Part shown: positions 8,197 through 27,103 of the stretch, in pieces | How positions within the stretch are numbered: position 1 is the stretch's first letter | Layout of the letters: each line of letters starts with the position of its first letter | Source: Patescibacteria group bacterium | GTDB lineage: Bacteria > Patescibacteriota > Minisyncoccia > Phycocordibacterales > UBA9973 | Length of the DNA: 27,954 nucleotides | Reading direction: 5' to 3' | Assembly (NCBI GenBank): GCA_038058445.1 | Contig: JBBUBB010000022.1 | Location: 1-27,954, forward strand | Made by a program: the position numbers and the translations under genes | The notes under the pieces: model-generated | Databases searched by the model: none | Told to the model about the DNA's origin: nothing | What the model saw: the letters and a program-made list of their open reading frames with translations, nothing else

Positions 8197-9609
8197 CTAA
8201 AATTCAATAAATAAGAATTTACGCTTAAGAGTGACTGTCGCTTGATCTGAGGCTGAGTTTGTTCCATCAGTACAGTTGAGAGTATAGGTAGTATTAACTG
8301 TTGGGCTAACTGATACCCCGGTAGTATTTTGTATTGCACCGCCGGTGTTAAAGCCGATCCCAGAACAAGATGTCGCGCCCTGTGAACTCCAAGTTAGTAG
8401 TGCCGATTCTCCTGAGCTAATCCTATCAGGAGTAGCTACAAGATCAGCTATTATATCGCCTGGATCACCAACTGTCACAGTGACTGTCTTGGCGTCGCTA
8501 GCATTTCCATTTACTCCAGTACAAGAAAGTGTAAAGGTAGTGGTCGCGGTCAGTGCTCCAGTAGATTCATGAGGGAAACTACTACTTGTAGGCCTTGCTC
8601 CAGTCCAGGTACCGCTTATTGGACTAGCACTGGCCGTACAAGAAGATACATTGGCGCTTGTCCAAGAAAGAGTTGCAGAGTTACCCAAGAAAATACTGCT
8701 AGGAAGAGCGCTTAGAGACACCGACGGAGTTACAACAACTACTTGGCACGAAGATCCATTCCATGAAGTCCCGCCTGCACAACTAGCAGTAGCAGAAGAC
8801 TGGGCAAGAAGAACGCTGTTGTGATACAGATAGAAGTCTGTTTGCCCATAACTTAATGTCGCACCTTGTGAACCACTAGCTAGTGGACTTGGTGTAAAGG
8901 AAGCAGGTGAACCCGTGTTACGCGTAATAGAGGTAGGGTTTGCCGTTAGATCTGAGGTTGTCCAAGAAACAGAACCAGAACAACTAGAGCCTCCTGAAGA
9001 AATAGTACAACCTGTTACAGAAAGCGTCCCAGACGGTGACGGCACTGCGTTAGTTTCATTATCATCATTTGGATCATAAGCGCCAGTTAAAACATCGCCC
9101 ACATGACAACCTGGGTCATTAATATCAGCCAAGCTATCTTCTGGGTCAGCATTATCAATATTGTCGGAACACTCTGTAACTGCAGGATTTACTACTACTA
9201 AAACAGAACTATAAGCACTAACAGTTCCACCAGCCCAAGCTTTTATACAAGTAATATCAAAAGTATAGTTTCCAGCACTTAGCCCACTTACTATCGTCGG
9301 ACCACCACCAGAAGGTGAAGGTGATGTACCGTTCCATGAGGTTGACGGACTACTTGTGGCAGTACAACTGTCTGGAGTGCCTGTTGTTGTCCAATTCAAT
9401 ATTGTCTGGCTAGTCGGAAGTGTCATTGAAGTCGGTGTAGCGGTCAGGTCTACAGTAATTACGGGTGGAGAGCCAGCATCTACTGTGTAGTTTTCGGAGT
9501 GACTATAATATGTCCACGCTGCGGAAACCTTTGTACTAAGCCCAAAAGTAAGCACAAGAAACGATGCAAGTAATATTATATTTTTCATATTTGTTGTGAT
9601 TTTTTTCAT
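8197..9609 (-). CDS. Secreted Ser/Thr-rich protein with repeated Cys-containing Ig/PKD-like modules and an acidic putative Ca-binding motif (start at 9609 or 9588, not 9888)
   Basis: Signal peptide MKNIILLASFLVLTFGLSTKVSA. Repeated modules L-x-A-x-P...L-x-W-x-S/T...SC...Y/F-T-L-x-C. Acidic motif ECSDNIDNADPEDSLADINDPGC. C-terminal FLFIEF. A start at 9888 would overlap the upstream gene by 263 nt. Confidence 0.8.
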   Translation of the reverse strand: MKKITTNMKNIILLASFLVLTFGLSTKVSAAWTYYSHSENYTVDAGSPPVITVDLTATPTSMTLPTSQTILNWTTTGTPDSCTATSSPSTSWNGTSPSPSGGGPTIVSGLSAGNYTFDITCIKAWAGGTVSAYSSVLVVVNPAVTECSDNIDNADPEDSLADINDPGCHVGDVLTGAYDPNDDNETNAVPSPSGTLSVTGCTISSGGSSCSGSVSWTTSDLTANPTSITRNTGSPASFTPSPLASGSQGATLSYGQTDFYLYHNSVLLAQSSATASCAGGTSWNGSSCQVVVVTPSVSLSALPSSIFLGNSATLSWTSANVSSCTASASPISGTWTGARPTSSSFPHESTGALTATTTFTLSCTGVNGNASDAKTVTVTVGDPGDIIADLVATPDRISSGESALLTWSSQGATSCSGIGFNTGGAIQNTTGVSVSPTVNTTYTLNCTDGTNSASDQATVTLKRKFLFIEF

Positions 9610-9625
9610 TATTTTATATTTCTTA

Positions 9626-11587
9626 CTATGGACACGGGGTGATTTTAATAACTTGAATAGTTGTTTGGTTGTTATTATTAAAAACAACTTTCTCAATAGG
9701 ACCAGAAGTGTCGGCTCCAGTAGTATTTGCACAGTGGAAGGTTCCATCACTATCAGTAATTTGAACCGACCCTGAATCATCCATATCCACATTGACAAAT
9801 AAGTCATAGGCCCCGGGGTCGGCTGTAAACAATATTTCTCCTGGGTCATTAAGGAAGATCGGATCCGGATTTGGATTAACCACGCCATTCACACCAGCTG
9901 AAAATAAATCTGCCCCAGCAAAGCTGTGTAAAATTGGTACTATCTCGTCAATCCCAGCGCTGAAATCAACAGTAAATGTTTGCGGGAGTGGAGGATTTGT
10001 TGGGACATTTACATTATGAAGGACTGATTGGCCGGTATAGGAAGGTAAACTAGGTCCTACAGAGATAACCCCTGATGGGGGATTAAATATTTGGACTGGA
10101 TTATTATTATTCAAATTTATAGTTATAGCACTCAAGGATACATCTTCATCAAAATTATTATTATAAGAGACCACACTTCCGTCTATATTCATCGGATCAC
10201 CTTGACTATATGTTGAGCTCCCTGGGTTATTAACATTAGCGACATTTACTACTACATAAACATTACCTTGCGCCCCAATAGGCGGGTAAGTGTAAGCTTG
10301 AACCGATGAGAACGACATGAGGGTAACAATAAATGCAACCACTGCCAGCGGTGTAGTAATATTTTTATTTATTTTTTTCTTTTTCATATACTTTCCTACA
10401 AGAATGATGCCTAATAATATTAATATAATAAGTAATGCCCCTTTTACTCCACCAAATGTCCCACCGAACTCTTTGACTGAGGTTGTCTTTATATCAAATG
10501 TTTTCTCATCCAAAGTCATGCCTGATTTGTTTTTAAGGGAAACTGTAATAGACGGATTAAAACATGGACGCTTTATTGAGACCTCAATATTGCTTTTAAA
10601 GCCATTTATTTCATCAACACTGGTTTTGCCACAAAGTGCTCCTTTATCAGTTTTGATTACAACATCAGCAAAGGTCGGGACAGGCGGTGCAGACCAAAGA
10701 AGTGTTAGATTTGCCTTGTCTCCTGCCCTGTAATAATCCTTATCAGCTGAAACATTGACTATGGTCGCAGTAGCCCCACTGACACTGTATCTAACTACTA
10801 CGCTATTTGACTGTCCCTCTCCAAATGTGACTTGGGTTACATATATTTGTGGCTTTCTACCCACTGGTAAAGTAAGTGCCACAATCTTTTTTTCTCCAGC
10901 TTTGAAGGATATTGGTGCTACGTCCCCGCCTGTAACTTCAGCTTTCTCGCCACCGAGAGTTCGGTAATATGTTTGATACGAAGGAATAAAACTTAGCACT
11001 CCTGCTGAAGTATTTTGTGCTGTACAAGAAAGTTTGAGTGATTGATTACTACTCAACACCGGGCTCTCTGAAAGGGAGTGAGACTTTTTTTCGTTTGAAC
11101 CAACAATACTAGTAGAACAAGACTCTGGCGCGACGCTTATCCCTTTTTGACTAGCCGTGAAAGTCACATCCCCTACACTAACAACTCCAAAAGGAAATCC
11201 AACATCGTTATTACTAAAAAGATAAAGAGAGTACGTACCGGAAAGAGTTGCAGGTGCGACATACACTATACTTTTTTGTGTTTGGGAATTTTCAGCCAGA
11301 GTTAGTGCTTCATCATAGACCTTCTCATCAATAACAATATTTCTGTTAACTTTAGAATAAAGCCTAACACTATACTTTACCCCTGTTTGCACCCCCTTAC
11401 CATTAGTAAGTAGGAACGAGACATTAACTACGCTGCCAATTTGGTTTGCGATCTTGGCTCCTTGAATGTTTACATTAGCTACTGTAGCCATTTGCGGAGC
11501 TTTTGTTTGTGCTAGTGCGCTACGAATAGGGGTAACGAGTACACCGACACATAAAAGACTAAGGGCAATGTATTTAAATAGTTTCAT
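9626..11587 (-). CDS. Secreted/membrane-anchored hypothetical protein with beta-rich domains, a mid-protein TM helix and a second internal signal-peptide-like segment
   Basis: N-terminal signal ending SALA. TM segment GALLIILILLGIILVG at about aa 383-398, followed by MKKKKINKNITTPLAVVAFIVTLMSFSSVQA at aa 401-431. Confidence 0.8.
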   Translation of the reverse strand: MKLFKYIALSLLCVGVLVTPIRSALAQTKAPQMATVANVNIQGAKIANQIGSVVNVSFLLTNGKGVQTGVKYSVRLYSKVNRNIVIDEKVYDEALTLAENSQTQKSIVYVAPATLSGTYSLYLFSNNDVGFPFGVVSVGDVTFTASQKGISVAPESCSTSIVGSNEKKSHSLSESPVLSSNQSLKLSCTAQNTSAGVLSFIPSYQTYYRTLGGEKAEVTGGDVAPISFKAGEKKIVALTLPVGRKPQIYVTQVTFGEGQSNSVVVRYSVSGATATIVNVSADKDYYRAGDKANLTLLWSAPPVPTFADVVIKTDKGALCGKTSVDEINGFKSNIEVSIKRPCFNPSITVSLKNKSGMTLDEKTFDIKTTSVKEFGGTFGGVKGALLIILILLGIILVGKYMKKKKINKNITTPLAVVAFIVTLMSFSSVQAYTYPPIGAQGNVYVVVNVANVNNPGSSTYSQGDPMNIDGSVVSYNNNFDEDVSLSAITINLNNNNPVQIFNPPSGVISVGPSLPSYTGQSVLHNVNVPTNPPLPQTFTVDFSAGIDEIVPILHSFAGADLFSAGVNGVVNPNPDPIFLNDPGEILFTADPGAYDLFVNVDMDDSGSVQITDSDGTFHCANTTGADTSGPIEKVVFNNNNQTTIQVIKITPCP

Positions 11588-15605: not shown

Positions 15606-16655
15606 ATGCCTAAGAAACCTATAAATATAGACAATTTGAAAATTACTGAACAGAAAGATGGGTCTGTCGAGATCAAGGGTGAAATTTCTTGGAAAGATTT
15701 TAGTGCCTTTGAAAAGAAGGCTCTTGGCCGTTTGTTGGAACACCTAGAAATGCCAGGGTTTAGAAAAGGCAATGTACCAGAGGAAATAGCCAAAAAGCAA
15801 TTAGGAGACCAGCTTATTCTCTCTGATATGGCCGAGCTGGCAATACAAGAGTTCTACCCTACTATTCTCGAAGAGAAAAAGATTGACGCCATCGGTCGCC
15901 CTAATGTCTCTATTACAAAGCTAGCCCGTGACAACGAACTCGGCTTTACTATTACCACCGAAGTTTTACCAAAAATAAAACTGCCTGATTACAAAAAAAT
16001 TGCCAAGAATGCTGAAGCGGTGGCCAAAGTAGCAACTACTGAAGAAGAGATAGATAAGGTGATTGAGGACCTAAGACAAATGCGCGCCTATGGCCATGTA
16101 CACGACCACACCGATGATAGTCATGGGCACACCGAACCTCTCCCAGAGGTAACAGATGAATTTGCCAAATCGTTTGGTAACTTCCAAAGTGTGGCTGACC
16201 TGCGTGCCAAAATCAAAGAAAATGTCCTGCGTGAAAAGGATCAAAACGAAAAAGACAAACGCCGTATTGCTATTATGGACGGTATTATTGCAAAGACTGA
16301 GTTCCTCGTTCCACCAATTATTTTAAAATCAGAACAAGAAAAAATGATCGCTCAAATAGAGTCTGATGTAGCGCGCAGTGGTATGGAGTTTGATGCTTAT
16401 CTCAAACACACCAAGAAAACTCGTGAAGACTTAATGGAAGAATTCAAGGGAGAGGCAGAGCGCCGTGCTCGATTCCAAATACTGATAAACGCTATTGCCA
16501 AAGATATGGATGTAAAAACTACTGATGAAGAAGTAGACAAAGAAGCAGAGAAACTTATGCAAATGTATCCCGGCGCCGATCTGGCTCGAACCAAAGCCTA
16601 CGCGGATATGATACTGACCAACGAGAAAATCCTCTCGACATTAGAGAGTTTATAA
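15606..16655 (+). CDS. tig: Trigger factor lacking the FKBP/PPIase domain
   Basis: Ribosome-binding motif PGFRKGNVP and C-domain LPEVTDEFAK...EAERRAR. At 349 aa, a His-rich loop occupies the FKBP position. Confidence 0.93.
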   Translation: MPKKPINIDNLKITEQKDGSVEIKGEISWKDFSAFEKKALGRLLEHLEMPGFRKGNVPEEIAKKQLGDQLILSDMAELAIQEFYPTILEEKKIDAIGRPNVSITKLARDNELGFTITTEVLPKIKLPDYKKIAKNAEAVAKVATTEEEIDKVIEDLRQMRAYGHVHDHTDDSHGHTEPLPEVTDEFAKSFGNFQSVADLRAKIKENVLREKDQNEKDKRRIAIMDGIIAKTEFLVPPIILKSEQEKMIAQIESDVARSGMEFDAYLKHTKKTREDLMEEFKGEAERRARFQILINAIAKDMDVKTTDEEVDKEAEKLMQMYPGADLARTKAYADMILTNEKILSTLESL

Positions 16656-16670
16656 AAACTACAGAACTCA

Positions 16671-16719
16671 CCCCACCTTACGGTGGGGTTTGACCTCCCC
16701 ACCAATTTGATGGGGAGGT
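16671..16719 (+). terminator. Two tandem GC-rich hairpins after tig (terminator-like)
   Basis: CCCCACC/GGTGGGG at 16671-16688 and ACCTCCCCA/TGGGGAGGT at 16693-16719, each followed by TTGAC. Confidence 0.65.
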
Positions 16720-16747
16720 TTGACTTTATGGCGCAATCAGGTAATGT
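16720..16747 (+). promoter_or_regulatory. Sigma70-type promoter of the LpxC-like gene
   Basis: TTGACT-N16-TAATGT, 19 nt before the ATG at 16767. Confidence 0.5.
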
Positions 16748-16766
16748 TAACAAAAATTATCTGCAC

Positions 16767-17570
16767 ATGAAGAGAAAAATATTAGTAAAAAAGGTCACGG
16801 TTACAGGTCCAAACTTTTGGGGGTGGGAATCCAGTATAGATTTTCTCCCTTCAGAGTGGCCAGGATGGTTTATAAGAACAAAGGACGGCAATGTACCGAT
16901 AGACTTCAGAATAGCTTACTCAAAAAAAGGAAGGCTTCAGCTTAAGAAAAATGGTGTAACACTTAATGTTATTGAACATATTATCGCTCTTAAGCTGTTG
17001 GTGGGGCTTGATAATATAATACTCGTTCCACATAACAAATGGCCACCATACCTTGGTGGTGCTGGTGGGTATGCCAAACAATTAGAGGGAGCCTGGAGAC
17101 AGACAGACGACAATTTCCAAACTATAGAACCAAAAAAGGAAAGTACCGTCAGGCTAAACAACGAGCTAGCTACCGAGGTTTCCATAAAGAAATCAAAGGT
17201 AAAGAAGTTAAGCTTAACGGTACACAGCCATTGGAAACCTTTGCCGTCATGCCAACAAACCATAGTTGAGATGGAGTTGGGATTCAGAGAGGATATTTTG
17301 TATGCGAAGCCACAAGGATTCCCTGCTCACAGAGAATATCTTGCTGATCTTTCATCGATATTCGGCTGGCCCAATAAAAAGTATGTGTCCTGGATGAGTA
17401 GTTACAAAAGCTCAATGGACGCTTCGTATGATTGGTGGGCACATGCAGTGCAAGATGCTTTAGGAGCATTGGCACTGTGCCATTACCAAAAAATTCCAGT
17501 TCTTAACCAAGTAAGGTCGTGCGCAGGCCATAAACAAGATTTGGAAGCCATCAGACAATCTTTTTCCTAA
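16767..17570 (+). CDS. Divergent LpxC-like (UDP-3-O-acyl-GlcNAc deacetylase family) zinc hydrolase
   Basis: Colinear with E. coli LpxC motifs: VIEHIIALKLLVGLDNIIL vs TVEHLNAALAGLGIDNIVI; ILYAKPQGF vs ISRARTFGF; WWAHAVQDALGAL vs FVRHKMLDAIGDL; AGHKQD vs SGHALN. Confidence 0.75.
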   Translation: MKRKILVKKVTVTGPNFWGWESSIDFLPSEWPGWFIRTKDGNVPIDFRIAYSKKGRLQLKKNGVTLNVIEHIIALKLLVGLDNIILVPHNKWPPYLGGAGGYAKQLEGAWRQTDDNFQTIEPKKESTVRLNNELATEVSIKKSKVKKLSLTVHSHWKPLPSCQQTIVEMELGFREDILYAKPQGFPAHREYLADLSSIFGWPNKKYVSWMSSYKSSMDASYDWWAHAVQDALGALALCHYQKIPVLNQVRSCAGHKQDLEAIRQSFS

Positions 17571-17573
17571 AAT

Positions 17574-17602
17574 AAAAACCCGGTTATATTCCGGGCTTTT
17601 TT
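17574..17602. terminator. Bidirectional terminator
   Basis: A5-CCCGG-loop-CCGGG-C-T6 immediately after the LpxC-like stop. Confidence 0.7.
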
Positions 17603-17607
17603 ATTTT

Positions 17608-17778
17608 CTAATCAATAATATTGAGACACGGATCTTCGCCCTTCAGCTTACGATACAGAGCATTTCTTTTTTTTGTATCATCCCGCTCTTTCTGTAATTC
17701 TTCTTTTGATTTTATAACTTTTGGTGGAGGACTATCCAATATGTCATATTGGTTAAAGAAAAAACTTGGTGAATACAT
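17608..17778 (-). CDS. Possible 56-aa charged small protein
   Basis: MYSPSFFFNQYDILDSPPPKVIKSKEELQKERDDTKKRNALYRKLKGEDPCLNIID. It has -10-like hexamers upstream and converges on the terminator at 17574-17602. Confidence 0.4.
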   Translation of the reverse strand: MYSPSFFFNQYDILDSPPPKVIKSKEELQKERDDTKKRNALYRKLKGEDPCLNIID

Positions 17779-17934
17779 GGCTTTTAGTTTTTCATACTAT
17801 ACAGTATATATATTATTAGTCAACCTATTTTTGCTTTTCGGGCAAAATACCGTTATAGTACATGCGTACCGAACTGCTGTTTTGACTGCCCTACTACTTT
17901 CAACTTTACAAACTTTTAACTTTAAAAACTCACT

Positions 17935-18525
17935 ATGTTAATACCAACCGTAATCGAAAAAACCTCAGGTGGAGAGCGCGCTTATGATATCTACTCTCGC
18001 CTGCTCAAAGATCGTATTATTTTTGTTGGAGGGTCTATTGATGATCATGTTGCCAACCTTATAATTGCTCAACTTCTTTTTTTAGCTAATGAAGACCCTA
18101 AGAAAGATATTAGTCTTTACATCAATAGCCCAGGAGGATCTGTCACTGCTGGTCTGGCGATTTTAGACACGATGAATTTTATTAAACCAGATGTTTCTAC
18201 TATATGCGTAGGGCTTGCTGCTTCAATGGCTTCGCACTTACTAGCTGCAGGAGCTAAAGGAAAACGTTTTGCGCTTCCAAACTCAGAAATAATGATTCAC
18301 CAACCACACGGAGGGTTTGAGGGGCAAGTGACTGATATTGAAATTACAGCCAAACAAGTAATCAAACTCAAAGCTCGTCTCAATGAAATCTTTGCTAAAA
18401 ATACAGGTCAGAAACTTACACAAATCCAAGCCGACATGGAAAGAGACTTTTACATGGATGCAAGTGAGAGTAAGAAGTACGGCATTATAGATGCGGTTAT
18501 TACCAAAAACCCTGGAATAAATTAA
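17935..18525 (+). CDS. clpP: ATP-dependent Clp protease proteolytic subunit
   Basis: [29 protein letters not shown] (Ser), IMIHQP (His) and MERDFYM (Asp). Confidence 0.98.
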
Positions 18526-18526
18526 C

Positions 18527-20014
18527 ATGAACCCCTTTCTACTCGCTGCGGGCATGCTCCTTGCTGGAGGCATCATTGGTTATAGTATTCGCGCTGTAAT
18601 ATTTATTCTTCGCAAAAATTCACTTGAACTCACCGTCGGTGAGCGTTTGATGCATGCCAAAGAACAAGCTCAGAAGATAATTGACGAGGCTAGAGAAATC
18701 GAAAAACAGAAAGAGTCAGATCTCAAGGCAACCGAAGATCGTCTGATCAAAAAAGAATCTCTACTTGATCAACGCCAAGGCGAACTCGATAAGCGTGCTG
18801 AACAAATAGAACATAAACAACAAAGCACCGAGTCTCTTTCAAAAGAAGTTGAAGCCTTGGTTGAAGAAAGAGTCAAAGAACTTGAAAAGCTGGCCGGATT
18901 TTCTCGTGAGGATGCAAGGGCTGCACTTATTATCGATATTGAAAAACAATACGAAGAAGACTTAGCGGTTCGTAGTAACAAATTACAATTTCAAATGGAG
19001 GAGTCTCTTAAAGACCAAGCCAAGGAAATACTGATGACTGCTATCCAGCGTCTCTCTGTCCCTACCACCAACGCTCTCACCACTGCCTCTGTAGCTATAC
19101 CAAATGATGATGTGAAGGGTAAAGTCATTGGGAAAGAAGGAAGAAACATTAGAGCTTTTGAACGTGTCGCCGGTGTCGAACTTTTGATCGATGAATCCCC
19201 TGGCGCAATTGTGGTGTCATGTTTTGATCCGGTGCGTAGAGCAATAGCAACAGCGGCTCTGGAAGCACTTGTAAAAGACGGGCGCATCCAACCGGCACGC
19301 ATAGAGGAAGAATTAGAAACTGCCAAGAAAAACATTCACGAAGTTATGAAAGAGAAAGGTGCAGCCGCAGTTTACGAATGTGGTATTTTCAATCTCGATC
19401 CGCGTGTTGTGGCTGTTTTAGGAAGACTTCACTATCGAAGTAGCTACGGACAAAATGTTTTGCAACATTCTATCGAAATGGCACATGTAGCTGGAATGCT
19501 GGCGACCGAGCTCGGTGCCGATGCTTACATCGCCAAGGCTGGCGCACTCGTTCACGACATCGGCAAAGCCCTTGATCATGAATTTGAAGGTACACACATA
19601 GAAATAGGGGTCAAAATGCTTCGCCGGTTTGGCACTGATGAGAGAATTATTTCTGCTATGAAAAGCCATCACGACGATTGCCCACATGAATCCATTGAAG
19701 CCGTCATCGTCCAAACTGCCGATATGATTTCAGGAAGTCGGCCCGGTGCTAGGCGTGATACAGCTGAAATGTATTTGAAAAGATTGGCAGAGCTTGAGTC
19801 CCTTGCTAGCGGTTTCCAAGGAGTTGAAAAAGCCTACGTCCTTCAAGCCGGTCGTGAAATTCGTATCTTCGTCCACCCAGAAGCTATCTCTGATTTGGAA
19901 TCCAAAACTCTAGCGCGAAATATTGCTCTCACCATCGAACGCGACCTCCGCTATCCGGGACAAATCAAAGTAACAATTATAAGAGAGACGAGAATTATTG
20001 ACTACGCAAGATAG
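18527..20014 (+). CDS. rny: Ribonuclease Y
   Basis: N-terminal TM helix, coiled coil, KH domain KGKVIGKEGRNIRAFE, HD domain (HSIE, HDIGK, HHDD, ADMISGSRPGARR) and C-terminal YPGQIKVTIIRETR. Confidence 0.97.
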   Translation: MNPFLLAAGMLLAGGIIGYSIRAVIFILRKNSLELTVGERLMHAKEQAQKIIDEAREIEKQKESDLKATEDRLIKKESLLDQRQGELDKRAEQIEHKQQSTESLSKEVEALVEERVKELEKLAGFSREDARAALIIDIEKQYEEDLAVRSNKLQFQMEESLKDQAKEILMTAIQRLSVPTTNALTTASVAIPNDDVKGKVIGKEGRNIRAFERVAGVELLIDESPGAIVVSCFDPVRRAIATAALEALVKDGRIQPARIEEELETAKKNIHEVMKEKGAAAVYECGIFNLDPRVVAVLGRLHYRSSYGQNVLQHSIEMAHVAGMLATELGADAYIAKAGALVHDIGKALDHEFEGTHIEIGVKMLRRFGTDERIISAMKSHHDDCPHESIEAVIVQTADMISGSRPGARRDTAEMYLKRLAELESLASGFQGVEKAYVLQAGREIRIFVHPEAISDLESKTLARNIALTIERDLRYPGQIKVTIIRETRIIDYAR

Positions 20015-20704: not shown

Positions 20705-21202
20705 ATGGCAAGTATTCCTCTTGTTGGGAAATTGACTGTGCAGAGGGCTCGTTCATTAATTATTCAGCTAAAGGAAGCTTCTTTGTCATCAAACGTACTC
20801 TATCTTCAAATTAAATCACACGGTGGAAGACTAAGAGCATATGCAGAAATAGCAAATGCTATGTTGGAACTTTCACAAAAAGGTGTGAAGTTTATCGGTC
20901 AAGCAGACGAGGTAGGATCCGCTGCAATGCTAGTCTACTTAAACTGTGATGAACGGTGGGTAAGACCTGGTAGTGGTGGCTTCATTCACTTACCAATACC
21001 TAATAATAAAAAAATGTCAGAAGAGAGTGTGACGCTTGAAAGACAAAAGATAGTTAACTTTATTTCGGAGAGAACTGGACTTTCAAGTGAAAAAATTATT
21101 TCGCTTGATAATATCCCCCTCTTATCAAATGAAATGGTTGTGTATAGAATAGCAACCAAAAAGGTTCCAAGCTTTTCTTTAACACCAGTCGAGCCTGTTT
21201 AA
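20705..21202 (+). CDS. Divergent ClpP/crotonase-fold peptidase (second ClpP-family gene)
   Basis: LQIKSHGG matches YINSPGG, VGSAAM retains the catalytic Ser, ERWVRPGS matches KRFALPNS, and FIHLP retains the catalytic His. 165 aa. Confidence 0.75.
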   Translation: MASIPLVGKLTVQRARSLIIQLKEASLSSNVLYLQIKSHGGRLRAYAEIANAMLELSQKGVKFIGQADEVGSAAMLVYLNCDERWVRPGSGGFIHLPIPNNKKMSEESVTLERQKIVNFISERTGLSSEKIISLDNIPLLSNEMVVYRIATKKVPSFSLTPVEPV

Positions 21203-21241: not shown

Positions 21242-23962
21242 ATGTTAGCTCCTAAGGAAACTTTTGAATCCCAAGAACAAGAAATAGCCCATATCGCCAA
21301 TGAATCTCAAAAGGCCTATGTGCTTCAAGAGGGCGGCTCCAAGAGCCCTGAGAGCGCTACCCGGGAAACAATAGAAGAGTACGCTCAGGGACAAGCCAAA
21401 GACTTCTTGCACGAAGCTAGAACCCTCCCAGAACATGAAGCTGAAAGAATCGTCCTACGGTTAAAACCAGAAACCCACGACAAAAAGATAGAAGAGCTCT
21501 TCGGTACCATGATAGAGAAAGGTATCAAGAATGCACTCGATGTAGTGAAGAAAATGAACGACCCTCACCTTGAGGATGATTTCCACCGCTTTCTAGTGCA
21601 GTATTTACACACTATCGGAGCAATCCCGGGGCTGAAAGAAAATGAAGGTTTATACAAAGATTTAAACCACACACTTTTTTCGGTTGTCTTACCTAGTGAA
21701 CCAAGCACAGACAAAGTTGATGACTTCAAAAAGAAGGTCGCTGCCATGGCACAATTTTATACTAGCTTGGTTTCTTTGGTAGGGCTCGATAATACGATTT
21801 CAATAGAACTCGCAGTAGAACACAATCGAAAAGATATCGTGGTCTATGTAGCAGTACCCAAACTTTTGGTGGATGGTTTTGGCAAGTTAGTTTACTCATT
21901 TTTCCCAGGAGCAATAGTCGATGAAGTCGTTGATGACTACAATATTTTTTCCGTCGAGGCTCACTCTTTCTCAGCGAGTGTCGCTCATCTAAAGGAGACA
22001 CCTTACCAACCCCTTAAGACTTATCTCGATTTCGAAAACGACCCCTTTATGGCTATTTTGGGCGCTCTCTCTCAAATTGCTGAAACCGCTGAAGGTTGTG
22101 CTGTCCAAATGGTTCTTTCTGAAAGCCACAATAGAATAGCTGAACGCAATAATCATATTTTGACTGAAGCACTAAACGGTAGTGGGACAGTCAAGGATCT
22201 TTATAAAAAAGCAACAGAAGGAGTTCTAGGAGGGCTGGCCAAAGAAGCCTTCAGTTTATTCAAAAAACCAATAGAAAAAGAGGAGCATGAAAAGAAAATA
22301 GACAACGAGGGTATTGAGCTTCTGAAAAAGAAAAATGATTCTCGCATTGTCCAAGCTACTATCAGAATAGTATCCTCAGCGACCTCACCACAGAGAGCCA
22401 AACACATCAGAGAATCCATCGAGGCACCATTTGGACAGTTTTCATACATTGGTGGGAATGCAATAAAATGGCAAGAGTCCCAAGGCAAAGACCTGATCGA
22501 GACATGCAAGGCTTTTTCTTTTAGAAACCAAGCCGAAAAGTCACTTGAGCTTTCACTAAACGAGGCTTCTTCCTTGGTTCACTTCCCTATTGGCACATCT
22601 TCACCACACGAACTTAAAGAAAAGGACGCTACCTCTGCACCAGCCCCATCTTTTCCAAGTAATTTAGGTATTCATCTGGGTACAAATACTTTCAAGGGGC
22701 AGAAGACGGATATTGTTTTTGCTAAAGAGGACCGTGTAAGACATTGTTATGTTATCGGACAAACAGGTACTGGTAAAACTGTCATGTTAAAAAATATGAT
22801 CATCCAAGATATCAAAAACGGTGACGGCGTTTGCTTTATTGACCCACACGGTACCGACATTGAACACATTCTGGCCAATATTCCTGCTGATCGTATAGAC
22901 GATGTCATTTACTTCGACCCTGCCTATACAGCAAGGCCTATGGGGCTCAACATGCTTGAGTACGATATAAATTACCCAGAACAAAAAATATTTGTCATCA
23001 ACGAGCTCCTAAGCATATTCAACAAACTCTTTGATATGAAAACTGCTGGCGGCCCAGCTTTTGAACAGTATTTCCGTAACTCTGCCGGTCTTGTTATGGA
23101 GGATCCGGAAAGTGGTTCTACCCTACTTGAGATTAGTCGGGTCATGAGTGATAAGGCCTTTCGAACACTCAAATTGTCGAAATGTAAAAACCCAATCATC
23201 AAAGCCTTCTGGGAAAACGCTGAGAAAACTACTGGTGAAGCCTCGCTGGCCAACTTTGTGCCATATATCACCAACAAGTTTGATCCATTTGTTTCCAACG
23301 ATATCATGCGCCCTGTCATTGCCCAACAGCACAGCGTGCTCAACTTCCGAGAAATTATGGATAAAAAGAAAATCCTTTTGGTGAACCTCTCAAAAGGCAG
23401 GCTTGGCGATATAAACTCAAACCTTATTGGACTTTTATTGGTTGGCAAAATCACCATGGCCGCGCTTTCTCGTGTCGACATTGTTGGCAAAGGCCCAGTC
23501 AATGACTTTTATCTTTACATTGATGAGTTTCAAAATGTCACAACTGATTCCATTGCTACCATCTTGTCAGAGGCCCGTAAGTATCGTCTTTCACTCACAG
23601 TGGCACACCAATATATTGAACAACTTGAAGAAAAAATAAAAGATGCGGTCTTCGGTAATGTTGGCACAATGATTATCCACAGAGTGAGCCCAGAAAATGC
23701 TGTAATTTTTGAAAAGCAATTGGCTCCAACATTTACCCCTGAAGACATCCTCAAACTTGAAAACCTAAATTGCTATATCAAAATGTTAGTTGGTGGTGTA
23801 CCAGTTAAGGCTTTCAATTCTGTAACACCATATCCACCAAAAGGAAATCCTGAGATTGTTGAGAAGATCAAAGAACTTTCATACCTCAAATATGGCAGAC
23901 CACGAGAAGAAGTCGAAGCTGAAATCATGGTTCGCTACCAAGCCCGCACCAATCCCTCATAA
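21242..23962 (+). CDS. VirD4/TraG/TrwB-like (HerA/FtsK superfamily) ATPase with a long N-terminal extension
   Basis: Walker A YVIGQTGTGKT, FIDPHG, Walker B LYIDEFQN and LSEARKYRLSLTVAHQ. TATACT lies 6 nt before the ATG. Confidence 0.85.
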   Translation: MLAPKETFESQEQEIAHIANESQKAYVLQEGGSKSPESATRETIEEYAQGQAKDFLHEARTLPEHEAERIVLRLKPETHDKKIEELFGTMIEKGIKNALDVVKKMNDPHLEDDFHRFLVQYLHTIGAIPGLKENEGLYKDLNHTLFSVVLPSEPSTDKVDDFKKKVAAMAQFYTSLVSLVGLDNTISIELAVEHNRKDIVVYVAVPKLLVDGFGKLVYSFFPGAIVDEVVDDYNIFSVEAHSFSASVAHLKETPYQPLKTYLDFENDPFMAILGALSQIAETAEGCAVQMVLSESHNRIAERNNHILTEALNGSGTVKDLYKKATEGVLGGLAKEAFSLFKKPIEKEEHEKKIDNEGIELLKKKNDSRIVQATIRIVSSATSPQRAKHIRESIEAPFGQFSYIGGNAIKWQESQGKDLIETCKAFSFRNQAEKSLELSLNEASSLVHFPIGTSSPHELKEKDATSAPAPSFPSNLGIHLGTNTFKGQKTDIVFAKEDRVRHCYVIGQTGTGKTVMLKNMIIQDIKNGDGVCFIDPHGTDIEHILANIPADRIDDVIYFDPAYTARPMGLNMLEYDINYPEQKIFVINELLSIFNKLFDMKTAGGPAFEQYFRNSAGLVMEDPESGSTLLEISRVMSDKAFRTLKLSKCKNPIIKAFWENAEKTTGEASLANFVPYITNKFDPFVSNDIMRPVIAQQHSVLNFREIMDKKKILLVNLSKGRLGDINSNLIGLLLVGKITMAALSRVDIVGKGPVNDFYLYIDEFQNVTTDSIATILSEARKYRLSLTVAHQYIEQLEEKIKDAVFGNVGTMIIHRVSPENAVIFEKQLAPTFTPEDILKLENLNCYIKMLVGGVPVKAFNSVTPYPPKGNPEIVEKIKELSYLKYGRPREEVEAEIMVRYQARTNPS

Positions 23963-26005: not shown

Positions 26006-27103
26006 TTACAACCGCACATCAATAGGTTTGGGTCTTTTTGAGAGTTGAACCATTTTTCTGAAGTGTGAGACAAAGACACTCCAAAATGTTGGGTATACAT
26101 GGTAAGGAAAATCAAAGTCCTTACACACTTGTTTCACCTTTTCACTGAGTGGCTTATAGTAAACATGACTTACCTCTGGAAATAAATGGTGCTCTATTTG
26201 AAAGTTCAAACCACCAACAAACCAGCTGATAAACTTGTTTCTTGTTGCAAAGTTGGCAGTAGTTGCCATTTGGTGAGCAATCCATTCAAACTTAGTGGCT
26301 ATCTCAATGCTAGGTTGAGAAACTTTCTCTACTATATGAGCCATTTGAAAAACAATGGCAGTAGTAAGCCCAGTAGTAAAAACAAAGATTATGTAACCAA
26401 TAGCCCAAGCTTTAAAACCGACAAATACAATAGGGACAACCCAGAAAAGGGTCACATAAAACACTTTCGTTAACCAGAAGACCTTTCGATCTTTTTTGGT
26501 TATTTTCATTTTATGCTCTCCTACCCGCCCTTTAAAATACTTGTCGAAATCACTCTTCAAGACCCAACCAATGTAGAGAAGCCCGTACATAAGCCAACAA
26601 TAAATTGGCTGTAGCCTATATACTGGCTTCCATGGTTGTTCTTCGTGAAGTCTCAATATCCCATTTTGAGCCACATCATCACCAATACCTTCTAGATTAG
26701 TATAGGTGTGGTGAAGAATGTTGTGCTTAAATTTCCAAAATGAAGAAGTTACACCAAGGAAATTGAATGAAAGCCCAACTAAATTATTAACCCATTTTGT
26801 CTCGGAAAATGAACCATGATTAGCATCGTGCCCCACATTAAAGCCAATTGAAGCAGCAATAAGCCCAAGTGTTATACAAAGTATCACCTTTGTATTTACA
26901 TAAAGATTTCCCCAAACAAGAAGAATGAAGGTGGTTATGAATAGTGCGAACAATATTATCGCCTTATGCCACAACCTCCAATCCCCCGTCTTTACTATTT
27001 CTTCTGGAGTACCCTCCTTGAAATAGTCGGATTCTACCTTTTCTATTGCTAGACCAAATGCTTGGATCTTAGCAAAAGAAGGTCGTTTTTTGGTTACTGA
27101 CAT
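26006..27103 (-). CDS. Membrane-bound fatty acid (acyl-CoA/acyl-lipid) desaturase
   Basis: Three His boxes HDANH, HNILHH and QIEHH; GGLNFQIEHHLFP and VFQMAH motifs; multiple TM helices; no fused cytochrome b5 domain. Confidence 0.92.
   Translation of the reverse strand: MSVTKKRPSFAKIQAFGLAIEKVESDYFKEGTPEEIVKTGDWRLWHKAIILFALFITTFILLVWGNLYVNTKVILCITLGLIAASIGFNVGHDANHGSFSETKWVNNLVGLSFNFLGVTSSFWKFKHNILHHTYTNLEGIGDDVAQNGILRLHEEQPWKPVYRLQPIYCWLMYGLLYIGWVLKSDFDKYFKGRVGEHKMKITKKDRKVFWLTKVFYVTLFWVVPIVFVGFKAWAIGYIIFVFTTGLTTAIVFQMAHIVEKVSQPSIEIATKFEWIAHQMATTANFATRNKFISWFVGGLNFQIEHHLFPEVSHVYYKPLSEKVKQVCKDFDFPYHVYPTFWSVFVSHFRKMVQLSKRPKPIDVRL

What the first reader, a model, noticed from the sequence alone, without database searches (positions are those of the whole stretch)
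16767..17570. Orphan, remodelled LpxC-like zinc deacetylase in an organism not expected to make lipid A
Seen: colinear LpxC motifs. By E. coli numbering, Zn ligands H79, H238 and D242 and catalytic E78 and H265 appear retained, while T191, F192, K239 and D246 appear changed to P, Q, A and A. It has its own promoter and terminators and is inserted between tig and clpP, with no lpxA/B/D nearby. Known: LpxC performs the committed step of lipid A synthesis, and CPR bacteria are described as lacking LPS and an outer membrane. Inference: a repurposed hydrolase with a new substrate (host lipid A precursor, other acyl-sugar or glycan) or a substrate-binding pseudo-enzyme.
Basis: partly seen in the sequence, partly recalled or inferred. 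Interest (0 to 1): 0.85.

Follow-up and report, generated by a model that had tools for sequence, protein, structure and literature searches.

The report
Orphan LpxC-like deacetylase in CPR bacterium
A tiny-genome groundwater bacterium with no lipid A pathway carries an intact but remodelled relative of the lipid A enzyme LpxC, one of a rare, undescribed family found almost only in such bacteria, which probably removes an acetyl or acyl group from some other, still unknown molecule.

Summary
Observation confirmed. Window 16767-17570 (+) encodes a 267-aa protein that matches Pfam LpxC end to end (32.8 bits, cut-off 27). Its model (pLDDT 97.9) superposes on solved LpxCs over 252 residues (Z 28).

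The genome is CPR-type: 0.58 Mb, 92% complete, with relatives named Nomurabacteria/Paceibacterota. It yielded no LpxB, LpxD, LpxK, KdtA or Omp85.

The gene is not a one-off. It belongs to a family of at least 204 clusters (50% identity) in which the zinc ligands and both catalytic residues are invariant or nearly so, yet no member comes near the lpxC equivalog score. Of 26 verified genomic copies, 25 lie in 0.6-1.4 Mb genomes, 22 of them named CPR. The family is rare: 1 of 400 phylum genomes and 6 of 51 in the genus, always between tig and clpP.

Two of the "lost" residues look relocated rather than lost (Arg 227 to 250; carboxylate 234 to 258).

Best reading: an active zinc amidase with a non-lipid-A substrate; a pseudo-enzyme is unlikely. 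The substrate is unknown. This scan has noted the same kind of gene in several other CPR genomes.

The parts
16767..17570 (+). CDS of the LpxC-like zinc amidase (267 aa plus TAA stop), protein P0001
   Evidence: Pfam LpxC at 32.8 bits, full length. AF2 model with pLDDT 97.9 and pTM 0.94. Z 28.1 to A. aeolicus LpxC over 252 residues. The start is supported by the homolog alignment.
16974..16979 (+). Codons E70-H71, equivalent to E. coli E78 (general base) and H79 (zinc ligand)
   Evidence: Mapping. E is present in 144/146 and H in 146/146 family members.
17310..17315 (+). Codons P182-Q183, equivalent to E. coli T191 (oxyanion) and F192
   Evidence: Mapping. In the family, position 182 is T 58 / S 24 / P 40 / A 19 and position 183 is Q in 98/146.
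17364..17393 (+). Family hallmark G200-W201-P202-N203 ... W209 in Insert II, aligned ungapped to E. coli G209-G210-S211-F212 ... V218
   Evidence: Alignment. Family counts are W201 125/146, P202 115/146, H/N203 128/146 and W209 144/146.
17442..17456 (+). H226-A-V-Q-D230, equivalent to the E. coli H238-K239-x-x-D242 zinc-binding motif with Lys replaced by Ala
   Evidence: Mapping. H226 is present in 145/146 and D230 in 146/146; position 227 is R in 131 and A in 13.
17514..17516 (+). R250, a candidate relocated basic residue that replaces R227/K239
   Evidence: All 13 A2 members with R250 lack R227; the (R227, S250) combination occurs in 121 members. There are few independent events, so this is an inference.
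17526..17540 (+). G254-H255 (equivalent to E. coli H265, the general acid) and D258, a candidate His partner replacing D246
   Evidence: H255 is present in 145/146 and D258 in 130/146. All 11 members with E at 234 lack D258. Canonical LpxCs have D246 plus N268.
16670..16720 (+). Two tandem GC-rich hairpins after tig, each followed by TTTGAC; probably tig terminators that isolate the gene from tig
   Evidence: RNA fold of -33.9 kcal/mol, z -4.83, with 0 of 200 shuffles as good; sequence read.
17579..17605 (+). Intrinsic terminator after the LpxC-like gene (CCCGG-loop-CCGGG followed by TTTTTTATT)
   Evidence: Terminator scan; fold z -3.9.
15606..16655 (+). tig (trigger factor), conserved upstream flank
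   Evidence: Pfam Trigger_N and Trigger_C. It is the same flank in 7 genomes that carry the gene.
17935..18525 (+). clpP, conserved downstream flank, followed by rny at 18527-20014
   Evidence: Pfam CLP_protease E 1.3e-84 and the RNase Y domains. Synteny shown.

Best explanation
The gene encodes a probably cytoplasmic (no signal peptide evident by eye; not tested with a predictor), zinc-dependent amidase or de-N-acetylase with the complete two-domain LpxC fold. By analogy with LpxC, Zn2+ would be held by H71, H226 and D230. E70 would activate the zinc-bound water, and H255 (probably partnered by D258 rather than by the canonical Asp at position 234) would protonate the leaving amine.

It is not the lipid A enzyme. 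It belongs to a separate, monophyletic LpxC-like family that is almost confined to CPR/Patescibacteria, is rare and patchy there, and occurs as a stand-alone gene among housekeeping genes. In the Insert II segment that forms the acyl-chain tunnel in LpxC, the aligned positions are replaced by conserved bulky or polar residues (P186, W201, P202, H/N203, W209). The UDP/phosphate-contacting Lys is Arg in most members and is apparently moved to R250 in this sub-clade.

The substrate is therefore most likely an anionic N-acetylated (or N-acylated) molecule other than UDP-3-O-acyl-GlcNAc, such as an amino-sugar phosphate, a nucleotide sugar or a lipid-linked sugar.

Shown: the fold, residue conservation, family distribution, and that the lipid A pathway was not found. 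Inferred: catalytic activity, the roles of R250 and D258, tunnel remodelling, and the class of substrate.
For: Fold: the AF2 model has pLDDT 97.9. All top Foldseek PDB hits are LpxC, with TM 0.74-0.80. VIA-align gives Z 28.1 with 252 of 267 residues aligned to A. aeolicus LpxC; the next non-LpxC fold scores Z 5.2.

Active site: H71 and D230 are invariant, and E70, H226 and H255 are present in 144-145 of 146 diverse members.

Distinct family: phmmer against 1.84 billion representatives gave 204 clusters at E<=1e-3 and 104 at E<=1e-10. The best TIGR00325 match among 146 members is E 1.9e-10, and this protein scores 19.6 bits against a cut-off of 187. In the tree the family is separated from two canonical LpxCs by a 100* branch.

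No pathway: LpxB, LpxD, LpxK, KdtA and Omp85 were not found in the 92%-complete own genome. The weak LpxA-C hit lies in a membrane-like ORF with no such Pfam match. LpxB was not found in 24 of the 25 small-genome carriers, with one marginal partial hit at 23.7 bits.

Distribution: 26 verified loci, 25 of them in 0.6-1.4 Mb genomes and 22 named CPR lineages. One of 400 phylum genomes carries it and 6 of 51 in the genus.

Paralogy: one 5.7-Mb alphaproteobacterial MAG has two family copies in addition to a canonical LpxC (363 bits) and LpxB, which argues for a non-redundant function.

Relocations: A227 goes with R250, and E234 goes with loss of D258.

Insert II: an ungapped alignment gives M195>P186, G210>W201, S211>P202, F212>H/N203 and V218>W209.

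Roles of the LpxC residues and of the Insert II tunnel are taken from PMC13333357.
Against: There is no biochemical or expression evidence: no RNA run could be listed. T191, which is critical for oxyanion stabilisation in LpxC, is Pro here and in 40 of 146 members, so this sub-clade could be catalytically weakened. The relocation patterns rest on only 2-4 evolutionary events and are not statistically significant. I had no model coordinates, so the positions of R250 and D258 and any blocking of the tunnel are inferred from alignment only. No conserved neighbour gene points to a pathway. The tool reports the family alignment on Pfam LpxC as a single matched stretch spanning profile positions 6-263, and the aligned structure covers Insert II, so an acyl-bearing substrate is not excluded.
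Confidence: 0.7

Rival explanations
1. It is a genuine LpxC (UDP-3-O-acyl-GlcNAc deacetylase) that acts on lipid A precursors obtained from a Gram-negative host, either to scavenge acyl-sugars or to interfere with host LPS synthesis.
For: It has the full LpxC fold including both insert regions. The zinc and catalytic residues are kept. Its best structural match is an LpxC-palmitate complex. CPR bacteria are thought to depend on hosts for lipids (general knowledge). A fatty-acid desaturase lies 9 kb away, and 4 of 6 genus carriers also have it.
Against: The protein scores 19.6 bits on the lpxC equivalog model against a cut-off of 187. K239 and K262 are A and C, and T191 and F192 are P and Q. 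Aligned tunnel positions G210, S211 and F212 become W, P and N. No signal peptide or secretion signal was evident by eye in the N-terminus (not tested with a predictor), whereas the substrate is a cytoplasmic intermediate of another cell. Ten of 26 carriers are labelled Saccharibacteria, whose cultured hosts are Actinobacteria that lack lipid A (my own knowledge). A proteobacterium keeps family copies alongside its canonical LpxC. The desaturase is also present in 12 of 45 non-carriers.
Confidence: 0.07
2. It is a catalytically dead LpxC-fold binding protein (a pseudo-enzyme or sensor) that binds a ligand without hydrolysing it.
For: In this sub-clade T191 is P, K239 is A and D246 is A. LpxC domains fused to response-regulator or sigma-54 activator domains exist in other phyla, which suggests that the fold can serve as a sensor.
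Against: All three zinc ligands, the general base and the general acid are invariant or nearly so across 146 members spanning 22-64% identity. The lost Arg and Asp have reciprocal replacements at 250 and 258, which is the pattern expected if the chemistry is under selection. The protein is a single domain with no output domain.
Confidence: 0.1
3. It is an assembly or binning artefact, or a decaying remnant of a transferred lpxC with no function.
For: The genome is a 100-contig MAG. The gene is absent from most relatives. One carrier (L054) has the gene split into two ORFs.
Against: The same gene lies between tig and clpP in six genomes of the genus and on a 545-kb contig of a further relative. 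The stretch is held by several independent groundwater runs. The frame is intact, and the model is extremely confident. Catalytic residues are conserved at 35-61% overall identity within the genus.
Confidence: 0.03

Closest known systems
LpxC, UDP-3-O-acyl-N-acetylglucosamine deacetylase (EC 3.5.1.108; Pfam PF03331, TIGR00325; e.g. E. coli 4MDT, A. aeolicus 1YH8/1P42)
   Same: It shares the two-domain fold with both insert regions (Z 26-28, 250-257 residues aligned). It keeps the zinc ligands H79/H238/D242 and the catalytic residues E78/H265, passes the Pfam gathering score, and is of similar length.
   Different: Sequence identity is only 15-18%. It scores 19.6 bits against the 187-bit equivalog cut-off. 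T191, F192, K239, D246 and K262 are P, Q, A, A and C. The Insert II positions aligned to tunnel residues are replaced by the conserved P186 and the GWP(H/N)...W motif. No LpxB, LpxD, LpxK or KdtA was found, only a sub-threshold false LpxA hit. It forms a separate clade.
LpxC-domain fusion proteins (LpxC-FabZ; LpxC fused to response-regulator or sigma-54 activator domains in Binatota/Nitrospinota)
   Same: They share the LpxC fold (TM 0.79-0.81 by query). The regulator fusions are other examples of the fold used outside the plain lipid A enzyme.
   Different: Those proteins are multi-domain, 340-730 aa, and come from diderm phyla. This protein is a single 267-aa domain in a CPR genome.
Other sugar de-N-acetylases: PIG-L/LmbE family (MshB, BshB), CE4 polysaccharide deacetylases, NagA
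   Same: They are metal-dependent removers of N-acetyl groups from GlcNAc-type substrates, which is the kind of reaction proposed here (my own knowledge).
   Different: Their folds are unrelated, and no sequence or structural match to them was seen. They serve only as a functional analogy.

Membership tests
LpxC fold / Pfam PF03331 superfamily | Two-domain beta-alpha-alpha-beta sandwich with Insert I and Insert II | tested here: met
   Z 28.1, with 252/267 residues aligned to 1YH8 across model residues 1-267. Foldseek TM is 0.74-0.80. The Pfam match is 32.8 bits against a cut-off of 27, over profile positions 6-263 of 268.
LpxC (EC 3.5.1.108) orthologs | Zinc ligands H79, H238, D242 (E. coli numbering) | tested here: met
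   They correspond to H71, H226 and D230. Roles are taken from PMC13333357.
LpxC (EC 3.5.1.108) orthologs | Catalytic E78 and H265 | tested here: met
   They correspond to E70 and H255, present in 144 and 145 of 146 family members.
LpxC (EC 3.5.1.108) orthologs | T191 (oxyanion stabilisation) | tested here: not met
   It is P182 in this protein. Across the family the position is T/S in 82, P in 40 and A in 19 of 146.
LpxC (EC 3.5.1.108) orthologs | K239 in the HKxxD motif, and D246 as partner of H265 | tested here: not met
   They are A227 and A234 here. Possible substitutes are R250 and D258, which is an inference.
LpxC (EC 3.5.1.108) orthologs | Hydrophobic acyl-chain tunnel formed by Insert II | tested here: inconclusive
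   The Insert II segment is present and aligns without gaps, but M195, G210, S211, F212 and V218 become P, W, P, N and W. No coordinates were available to measure a tunnel.
LpxC (EC 3.5.1.108) orthologs | Score above the curated equivalog cut-off (TIGR00325, 187.25 bits) | tested here: not met
   This protein scores 19.6 bits. The best E-value among 146 family members is 1.9e-10.
LpxC (EC 3.5.1.108) orthologs | Co-occurrence with the Raetz pathway and an outer membrane (LpxA, LpxD, LpxB, LpxK, KdtA, BamA) | tested here: not met
   No match was found for LpxB, LpxD, LpxK, KdtA or Omp85 in the own genome, which is 92% complete. The only LpxA-C hit is 16.6 bits and below the cut-off, in an ORF without that domain.
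LpxC (EC 3.5.1.108) orthologs | Deacetylation of UDP-3-O-acyl-GlcNAc | not testable with these tools
   This needs an enzyme assay or complementation of an E. coli lpxC conditional mutant.
CPR LpxC-like family (defined here by alignment A2) | Motifs xEH, WPPYxG, QG(W/F/Y)P, GWP(H/N)...W, H(R/A)xxDxLG, GHxxD; about 265-300 aa; single domain | tested here: met
   All these motifs are present in P0001. The family HMM scores 295.9 bits. The protein is nested within the family tree.

The most novel reading that the evidence does not exclude
The family is a CPR-specific branch of the LpxC fold that works in a still unknown envelope or lipid-scavenging pathway. For example, it might de-N-acetylate a GlcNAc-bearing nucleotide-, phospho- or lipid-linked sugar so that the free amine can be re-acylated with host-derived fatty acids, or left charged in a surface glycoconjugate. 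That would make it the first non-lipid-A enzyme of the LpxC fold and a handle on the uncharacterised CPR cell envelope.
Probability: 0.2. Interest if true: 0.85.

Novelty: new variant of a known kind. Interest (0 to 1): 0.6.

Why it matters
LpxC is treated as a dedicated lipid A enzyme and as a marker of outer-membrane bacteria. The review I read calls the two insertions unique to LpxC enzymes (PMC13333357). A paper on a Parcubacterium cites the absence of lpxC and kdsA as evidence that it does not make lipid A or LPS (PMC5220378).

A conserved, catalytically intact LpxC-like family confined almost entirely to CPR bacteria matters in three ways. First, it warns that automatic 'UDP-3-O-acyl-N-acetylglucosamine deacetylase' labels in these genomes (for example the Nomurabacteria protein) should not be read as lipid A synthesis. 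Second, it offers a natural example of how the LpxC active site is re-tooled, with an apparently relocated Arg and carboxylate and a rebuilt Insert II. Third, it gives a small, soluble and highly foldable protein whose substrate could reveal an unknown piece of CPR envelope or scavenging chemistry.

Tried and rejected
A single-protein scan found nothing. I therefore scanned genome contigs with a hand-made degenerate DNA pattern; it gave 72 stretches, of which an HMM check confirmed 26 loci (27 ORF hits) and the rest were chance hits in GC-rich genomes.
- A profile search of the 5.8-billion-protein index added almost no named members.
- A tally of 61 neighbouring proteins showed no conserved partner, only assorted housekeeping genes.
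- The FGE-fold partner reported by earlier notes of this scan does not apply to this clade. It gave no significant hit in the own genome, and it appeared in only 2 of 30 carriers, on another contig in the one case where both contigs are known.
- Co-occurrence with the nearby fatty-acid desaturase is weak: 4 of 6 carriers against 12 of 45 non-carriers, and the genomes are related.
- The LpxA C-terminal hit on contig 3 was rejected as a false positive.
- The 56-aa minus-strand ORF at 17608-17778 is not conserved.
- The covariation of 227/250 and of 234/258 could not reach significance, because it rests on only 2-4 events.
- Within the genus, identities of the LpxC-like gene, tig and clpP correlate poorly with one another (r -0.10 to 0.36), so I could not tell vertical descent with fast evolution from allele replacement.
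- No RNA-seq run could be listed.
- No paper on LpxC homologs in CPR was found.

Full report
**1. What is there**

The ORF at 16767-17570 (+) encodes 267 aa. A longer GTG-started frame from 16683 exists. However, twelve homologs begin at the same MK(R/K)KIL, and the GTG extension overlaps two terminator-like hairpins, so the ATG at 16767 is the start.

The sequence evidence for an LpxC relationship is as follows.
- Pfam LpxC matches end to end: E 6.9e-8, 32.8 bits against a cut-off of 27, profile positions 6-263 of 268.
- The NCBIfam lpxC equivalog model gives only 19.6 bits against a cut-off of 187.
- phmmer against PDB sequences is insignificant, at E about 0.4-1.

The protein is therefore a very distant LpxC relative, not an ortholog.

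**2. Fold and residues**

An AlphaFold2 model built on a 146-sequence family alignment has mean pLDDT 97.9 and pTM 0.94. All top Foldseek hits in the PDB are LpxC, with TM 0.74-0.80 at 15-18% identity. VIA-align gives Z 28.1 with 252 of 267 residues aligned to A. aeolicus LpxC over the whole length, and the best non-LpxC chain reaches only Z 5.2.

Profile-profile alignment of the family to E. coli K-12 LpxC gives 98.3% probability and E 1.7e-14. I fetched that sequence and checked its numbering.

| E. coli LpxC | This protein | Status |
|---|---|---|
| E78 / H79 | E70 / H71 | kept |
| H238 | H226 | kept |
| D242 | D230 | kept |
| H265 | H255 | kept |
| T191 | P182 | changed |
| F192 | Q183 | changed |
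| K239 | A227 | changed |
| D246 | A234 | changed |
| K262 | C252 | changed |

The roles of H79/H238/D242 as zinc ligands, of E78/T191/H265 in catalysis, and of Insert II as the acyl-chain tunnel are taken from PMC13333357.

**3. Organism and pathway**

The window lies in a 578,508-bp, 100-contig assembly that is 92% complete. Relatives at genus, order and phylum level are all 0.4-0.9 Mb. Named proteins close to tig and to the LpxC-like protein come from Candidatus Nomurabacteria, Paceibacterota, Minisyncoccia and the Patescibacteria group. The DNA is held by groundwater and drinking-water metagenomes. The organism is therefore a CPR bacterium.

Whole-genome searches found no LpxB, LpxD, LpxK, KdtA or Omp85. 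The single sub-threshold LpxA-C hit lies in an ORF with no such Pfam domain. The assembly is incomplete, so this means 'not found', not 'proven absent'.

**4. It belongs to a family**

An exhaustive phmmer search of 1.84 billion representatives returned 204 clusters at E<=1e-3, 104 at E<=1e-10 and 14 at E<=1e-30. Nearly all are 260-300 aa.

In an alignment of 146 of them (22-64% identity to the query), conservation is concentrated on the active site.
- H71, P94 and D230 are invariant.
- E70, H226, H255, G184, W209 and W34 are nearly invariant.

The family has its own motifs: WPPYxG, QG(W/F/Y)P, GWP(H/N)...W, H(R/A)xxDxLG and GHxxD. None of the 146 approaches the lpxC equivalog score; the best E-value is 1.9e-10. 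In a maximum-likelihood tree the 83 family rows are separated from two canonical LpxCs by a fully supported long branch.

**5. Who carries it**

A degenerate DNA pattern built from family motifs, checked afterwards with the family HMM, gave 26 genuine loci among the species-representative genomes.
- Twenty-two are named CPR lineages: ten Saccharibacteria, plus Kaiserbacteria, Nealsonbacteria, Taylorbacteria, Parcubacteria, Paceibacterota, Minisyncoccia and the Patescibacteria group.
- Twenty-five of the 26 genomes are 0.6-1.4 Mb, including three with non-CPR or uninformative labels.
- In these 25, LpxB is not found apart from one marginal partial hit.

The exception is a 5.7-Mb alphaproteobacterial MAG. 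It has a canonical LpxC (363 bits) and an LpxB, plus two family copies that are 83% identical to each other. One copy is on the same contig as lpxB and lies beside Mla/MCE-type lipid-transport genes on the other strand.

The family is rare. One of 400 evenly drawn genomes of the phylum carries it, as do 6 of 51 genomes in the genus. Taxon labels are interleaved in the tree. That suggests transfer among CPR lineages, although MAG labels are coarse.

**6. The locus**

In all six carrier genomes of the genus, and on a 545-kb contig of another relative, the gene lies between tig and clpP. In two of these seven genomes it is on the opposite strand. Four of five genus mates examined that lack it have tig and clpP about 430-620 bp apart, roughly the sum of the two spacers in this window (111 + 364 bp); in the fifth (G012) no tig was found within the 1.5 kb upstream of clpP.

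Pairwise identities within the genus are shown below.

| Protein | Pairwise identity |
|---|---|
| LpxC-like | 35-61% |
| tig | 53-84% |
| clpP | 65-90% |

This is an old, variable occupant of one site rather than a recent insertion. I could not tell fast vertical evolution with repeated loss from allele replacement, because the flanking genes do not track each other either.

The gene is bracketed by two strong hairpins after tig (z -4.83) and by its own terminator (z -3.9). No sigma-70-like promoter was detected upstream on the + strand.

Gene neighbourhoods across the family are assorted housekeeping genes with no recurring partner.

**7. Is it an enzyme?**

The invariance of the zinc ligands, the general base and the general acid across such divergent sequences argues for retained chemistry. 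Two patterns strengthen this view.

First, the basic residue of the H(K/R)xxD motif is Arg in 131 of 146 members. The 13 members that have Arg at position 250 (Ser in 121 others) all lack Arg at 227, and this protein is one of them.

Second, the canonical Asp partner of the catalytic His (E. coli D246) is Ala in most of the family, which instead has Asp at His+3 (D258, 130 of 146). The 11 members with Glu at the canonical position have all lost D258. Canonical LpxCs show the opposite arrangement, D246 with N268.

These reciprocal patterns look like relocation of functional groups, so 'K239A' and 'D246A' are probably not losses. They rest on only 2-4 independent events, however, and are not statistically significant. 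I also had no coordinates to check the geometry. The real loss in this sub-clade is the T191 hydroxyl: Pro in 40 of 146 members, Thr or Ser in 82.

**8. Substrate**

Insert II aligns to E. coli without gaps, but the positions aligned with M195, G210, S211, F212 and V218 are P186, W201, P202, H/N203 and W209. All are strongly conserved in the family. That some of these E. coli residues line the acyl tunnel is recalled from the LpxC inhibitor literature and was not verified here.

No signal peptide is evident by eye at the N-terminus, which instead forms the first beta-strand of the fold; no predictor was run. A conserved basic residue beside the zinc site suggests an anionic substrate.

My best reading is a probably cytoplasmic de-N-acetylase acting on a phosphorylated, nucleotide-linked or lipid-linked amino sugar, or another N-acyl compound, and not on UDP-3-O-acyl-GlcNAc. 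This is an inference.

**9. Other leads tested**

- Earlier notes of this scan describe LpxC-like genes paired with an FGE-fold gene in other CPR genomes. This clade is not paired: there is no significant hit in the own genome, and only 2 of 30 carriers have an FGE-fold gene, on another contig in the one case where both contigs are known (G447).
- The same-window idea of a lipid toolkit gets only weak support. The desaturase is present in 4 of 6 carriers and in 12 of 45 non-carriers.
- No RNA run was listed.
- No paper in the library describes LpxC homologs in CPR. PMC5220378 cites the absence of lpxC and kdsA as evidence that a Parcubacterium makes no lipid A.

**10. Verdict**

The gene is a member of an undescribed, CPR-centred LpxC-like family, which makes it a new variant of a known kind. 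The same kind of gene has been flagged by this scan in several other CPR genomes, so the interest lies in the family rather than in this copy. The substrate remains unknown and needs biochemistry.

Noticed in passing
window 26006-27103 (-): This is a fatty-acid desaturase (Pfam FA_desaturase, E 2.2e-38) in a tiny CPR genome. It is present in 16 of 51 genomes of the genus, so it is an accessory gene. It suggests modification of acyl chains that the organism probably cannot make itself.
   Followed up: partly
window 20705-21202 (+) and 21242-23962 (+): A short, very divergent second ClpP-like ORF (PF00574, 24.7 bits) lies directly upstream of a 906-aa VirD4/TraG-type coupling ATPase (TrwB_AAD_bind, TraG-D_C). 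A similar 908-aa gene lies near clpP in the P0012 contig (L016).
   Followed up: no
window 17787-17886 (+), upstream of clpP: About 100 nt of intergenic DNA is 86% identical to the same position in genus mate G011 (L005 2408-2508), which is more conserved than the surrounding spacer. It may be a clpP promoter or regulatory element. Rfam found nothing there.
   Followed up: partly
window 16670-16720 (+): Two tandem GC-rich hairpins follow tig, each followed by the same GGTTTGAC sequence. They fold far better than shuffles (z -4.83). The repeated TTGAC could also serve as a -35 element for the LpxC-like gene.
   Followed up: partly
L104 (G462:C2:185000-200000) and L105 (G462:C13): A 5.7-Mb alphaproteobacterial MAG carries two copies of the CPR-type LpxC-like family (83% identical, with N-terminal extensions, 361 and 381 aa) besides a canonical LpxC. 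One copy lies next to MlaE, MlaD and ABC_trans_aux lipid-transport genes on the opposite strand.
   Followed up: partly
ESM Atlas clusters: LpxC domains fused to response-regulator receiver domains (Binatota) and to sigma-54 activator AAA+ domains (Nitrospinota; clusters of 124 and 381 members) suggest that the LpxC fold is also used as a sensor or regulatory module.
   Followed up: no
L054 5510-6403 (-): In one small-genome MAG the family member is split into two adjacent ORFs (127 and 168 aa). This is a probable frameshift or pseudogene.
   Followed up: no
window 3486-7922 (-): This is a type IV pilus gene block: a PilB-like ATPase (T2SSE), a PilC-like platform protein (T2SSF), and three small ORFs, one of which has an N-terminal methylation motif.
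   Followed up: no
window 8197-11587 (-) and 1745-3475 (-): Three large ORFs (563, 653 and 576 aa) have no Pfam match at E<=0.001. The first two overlap by about 260 nt as listed, so their starts need checking.
   Followed up: no
window 16750-16769 and 17920-17937: No Shine-Dalgarno-like purine run is visible upstream of the LpxC-like start or the clpP start. This is consistent with an organism whose genes mostly lack ribosome-binding sites.
   Followed up: no
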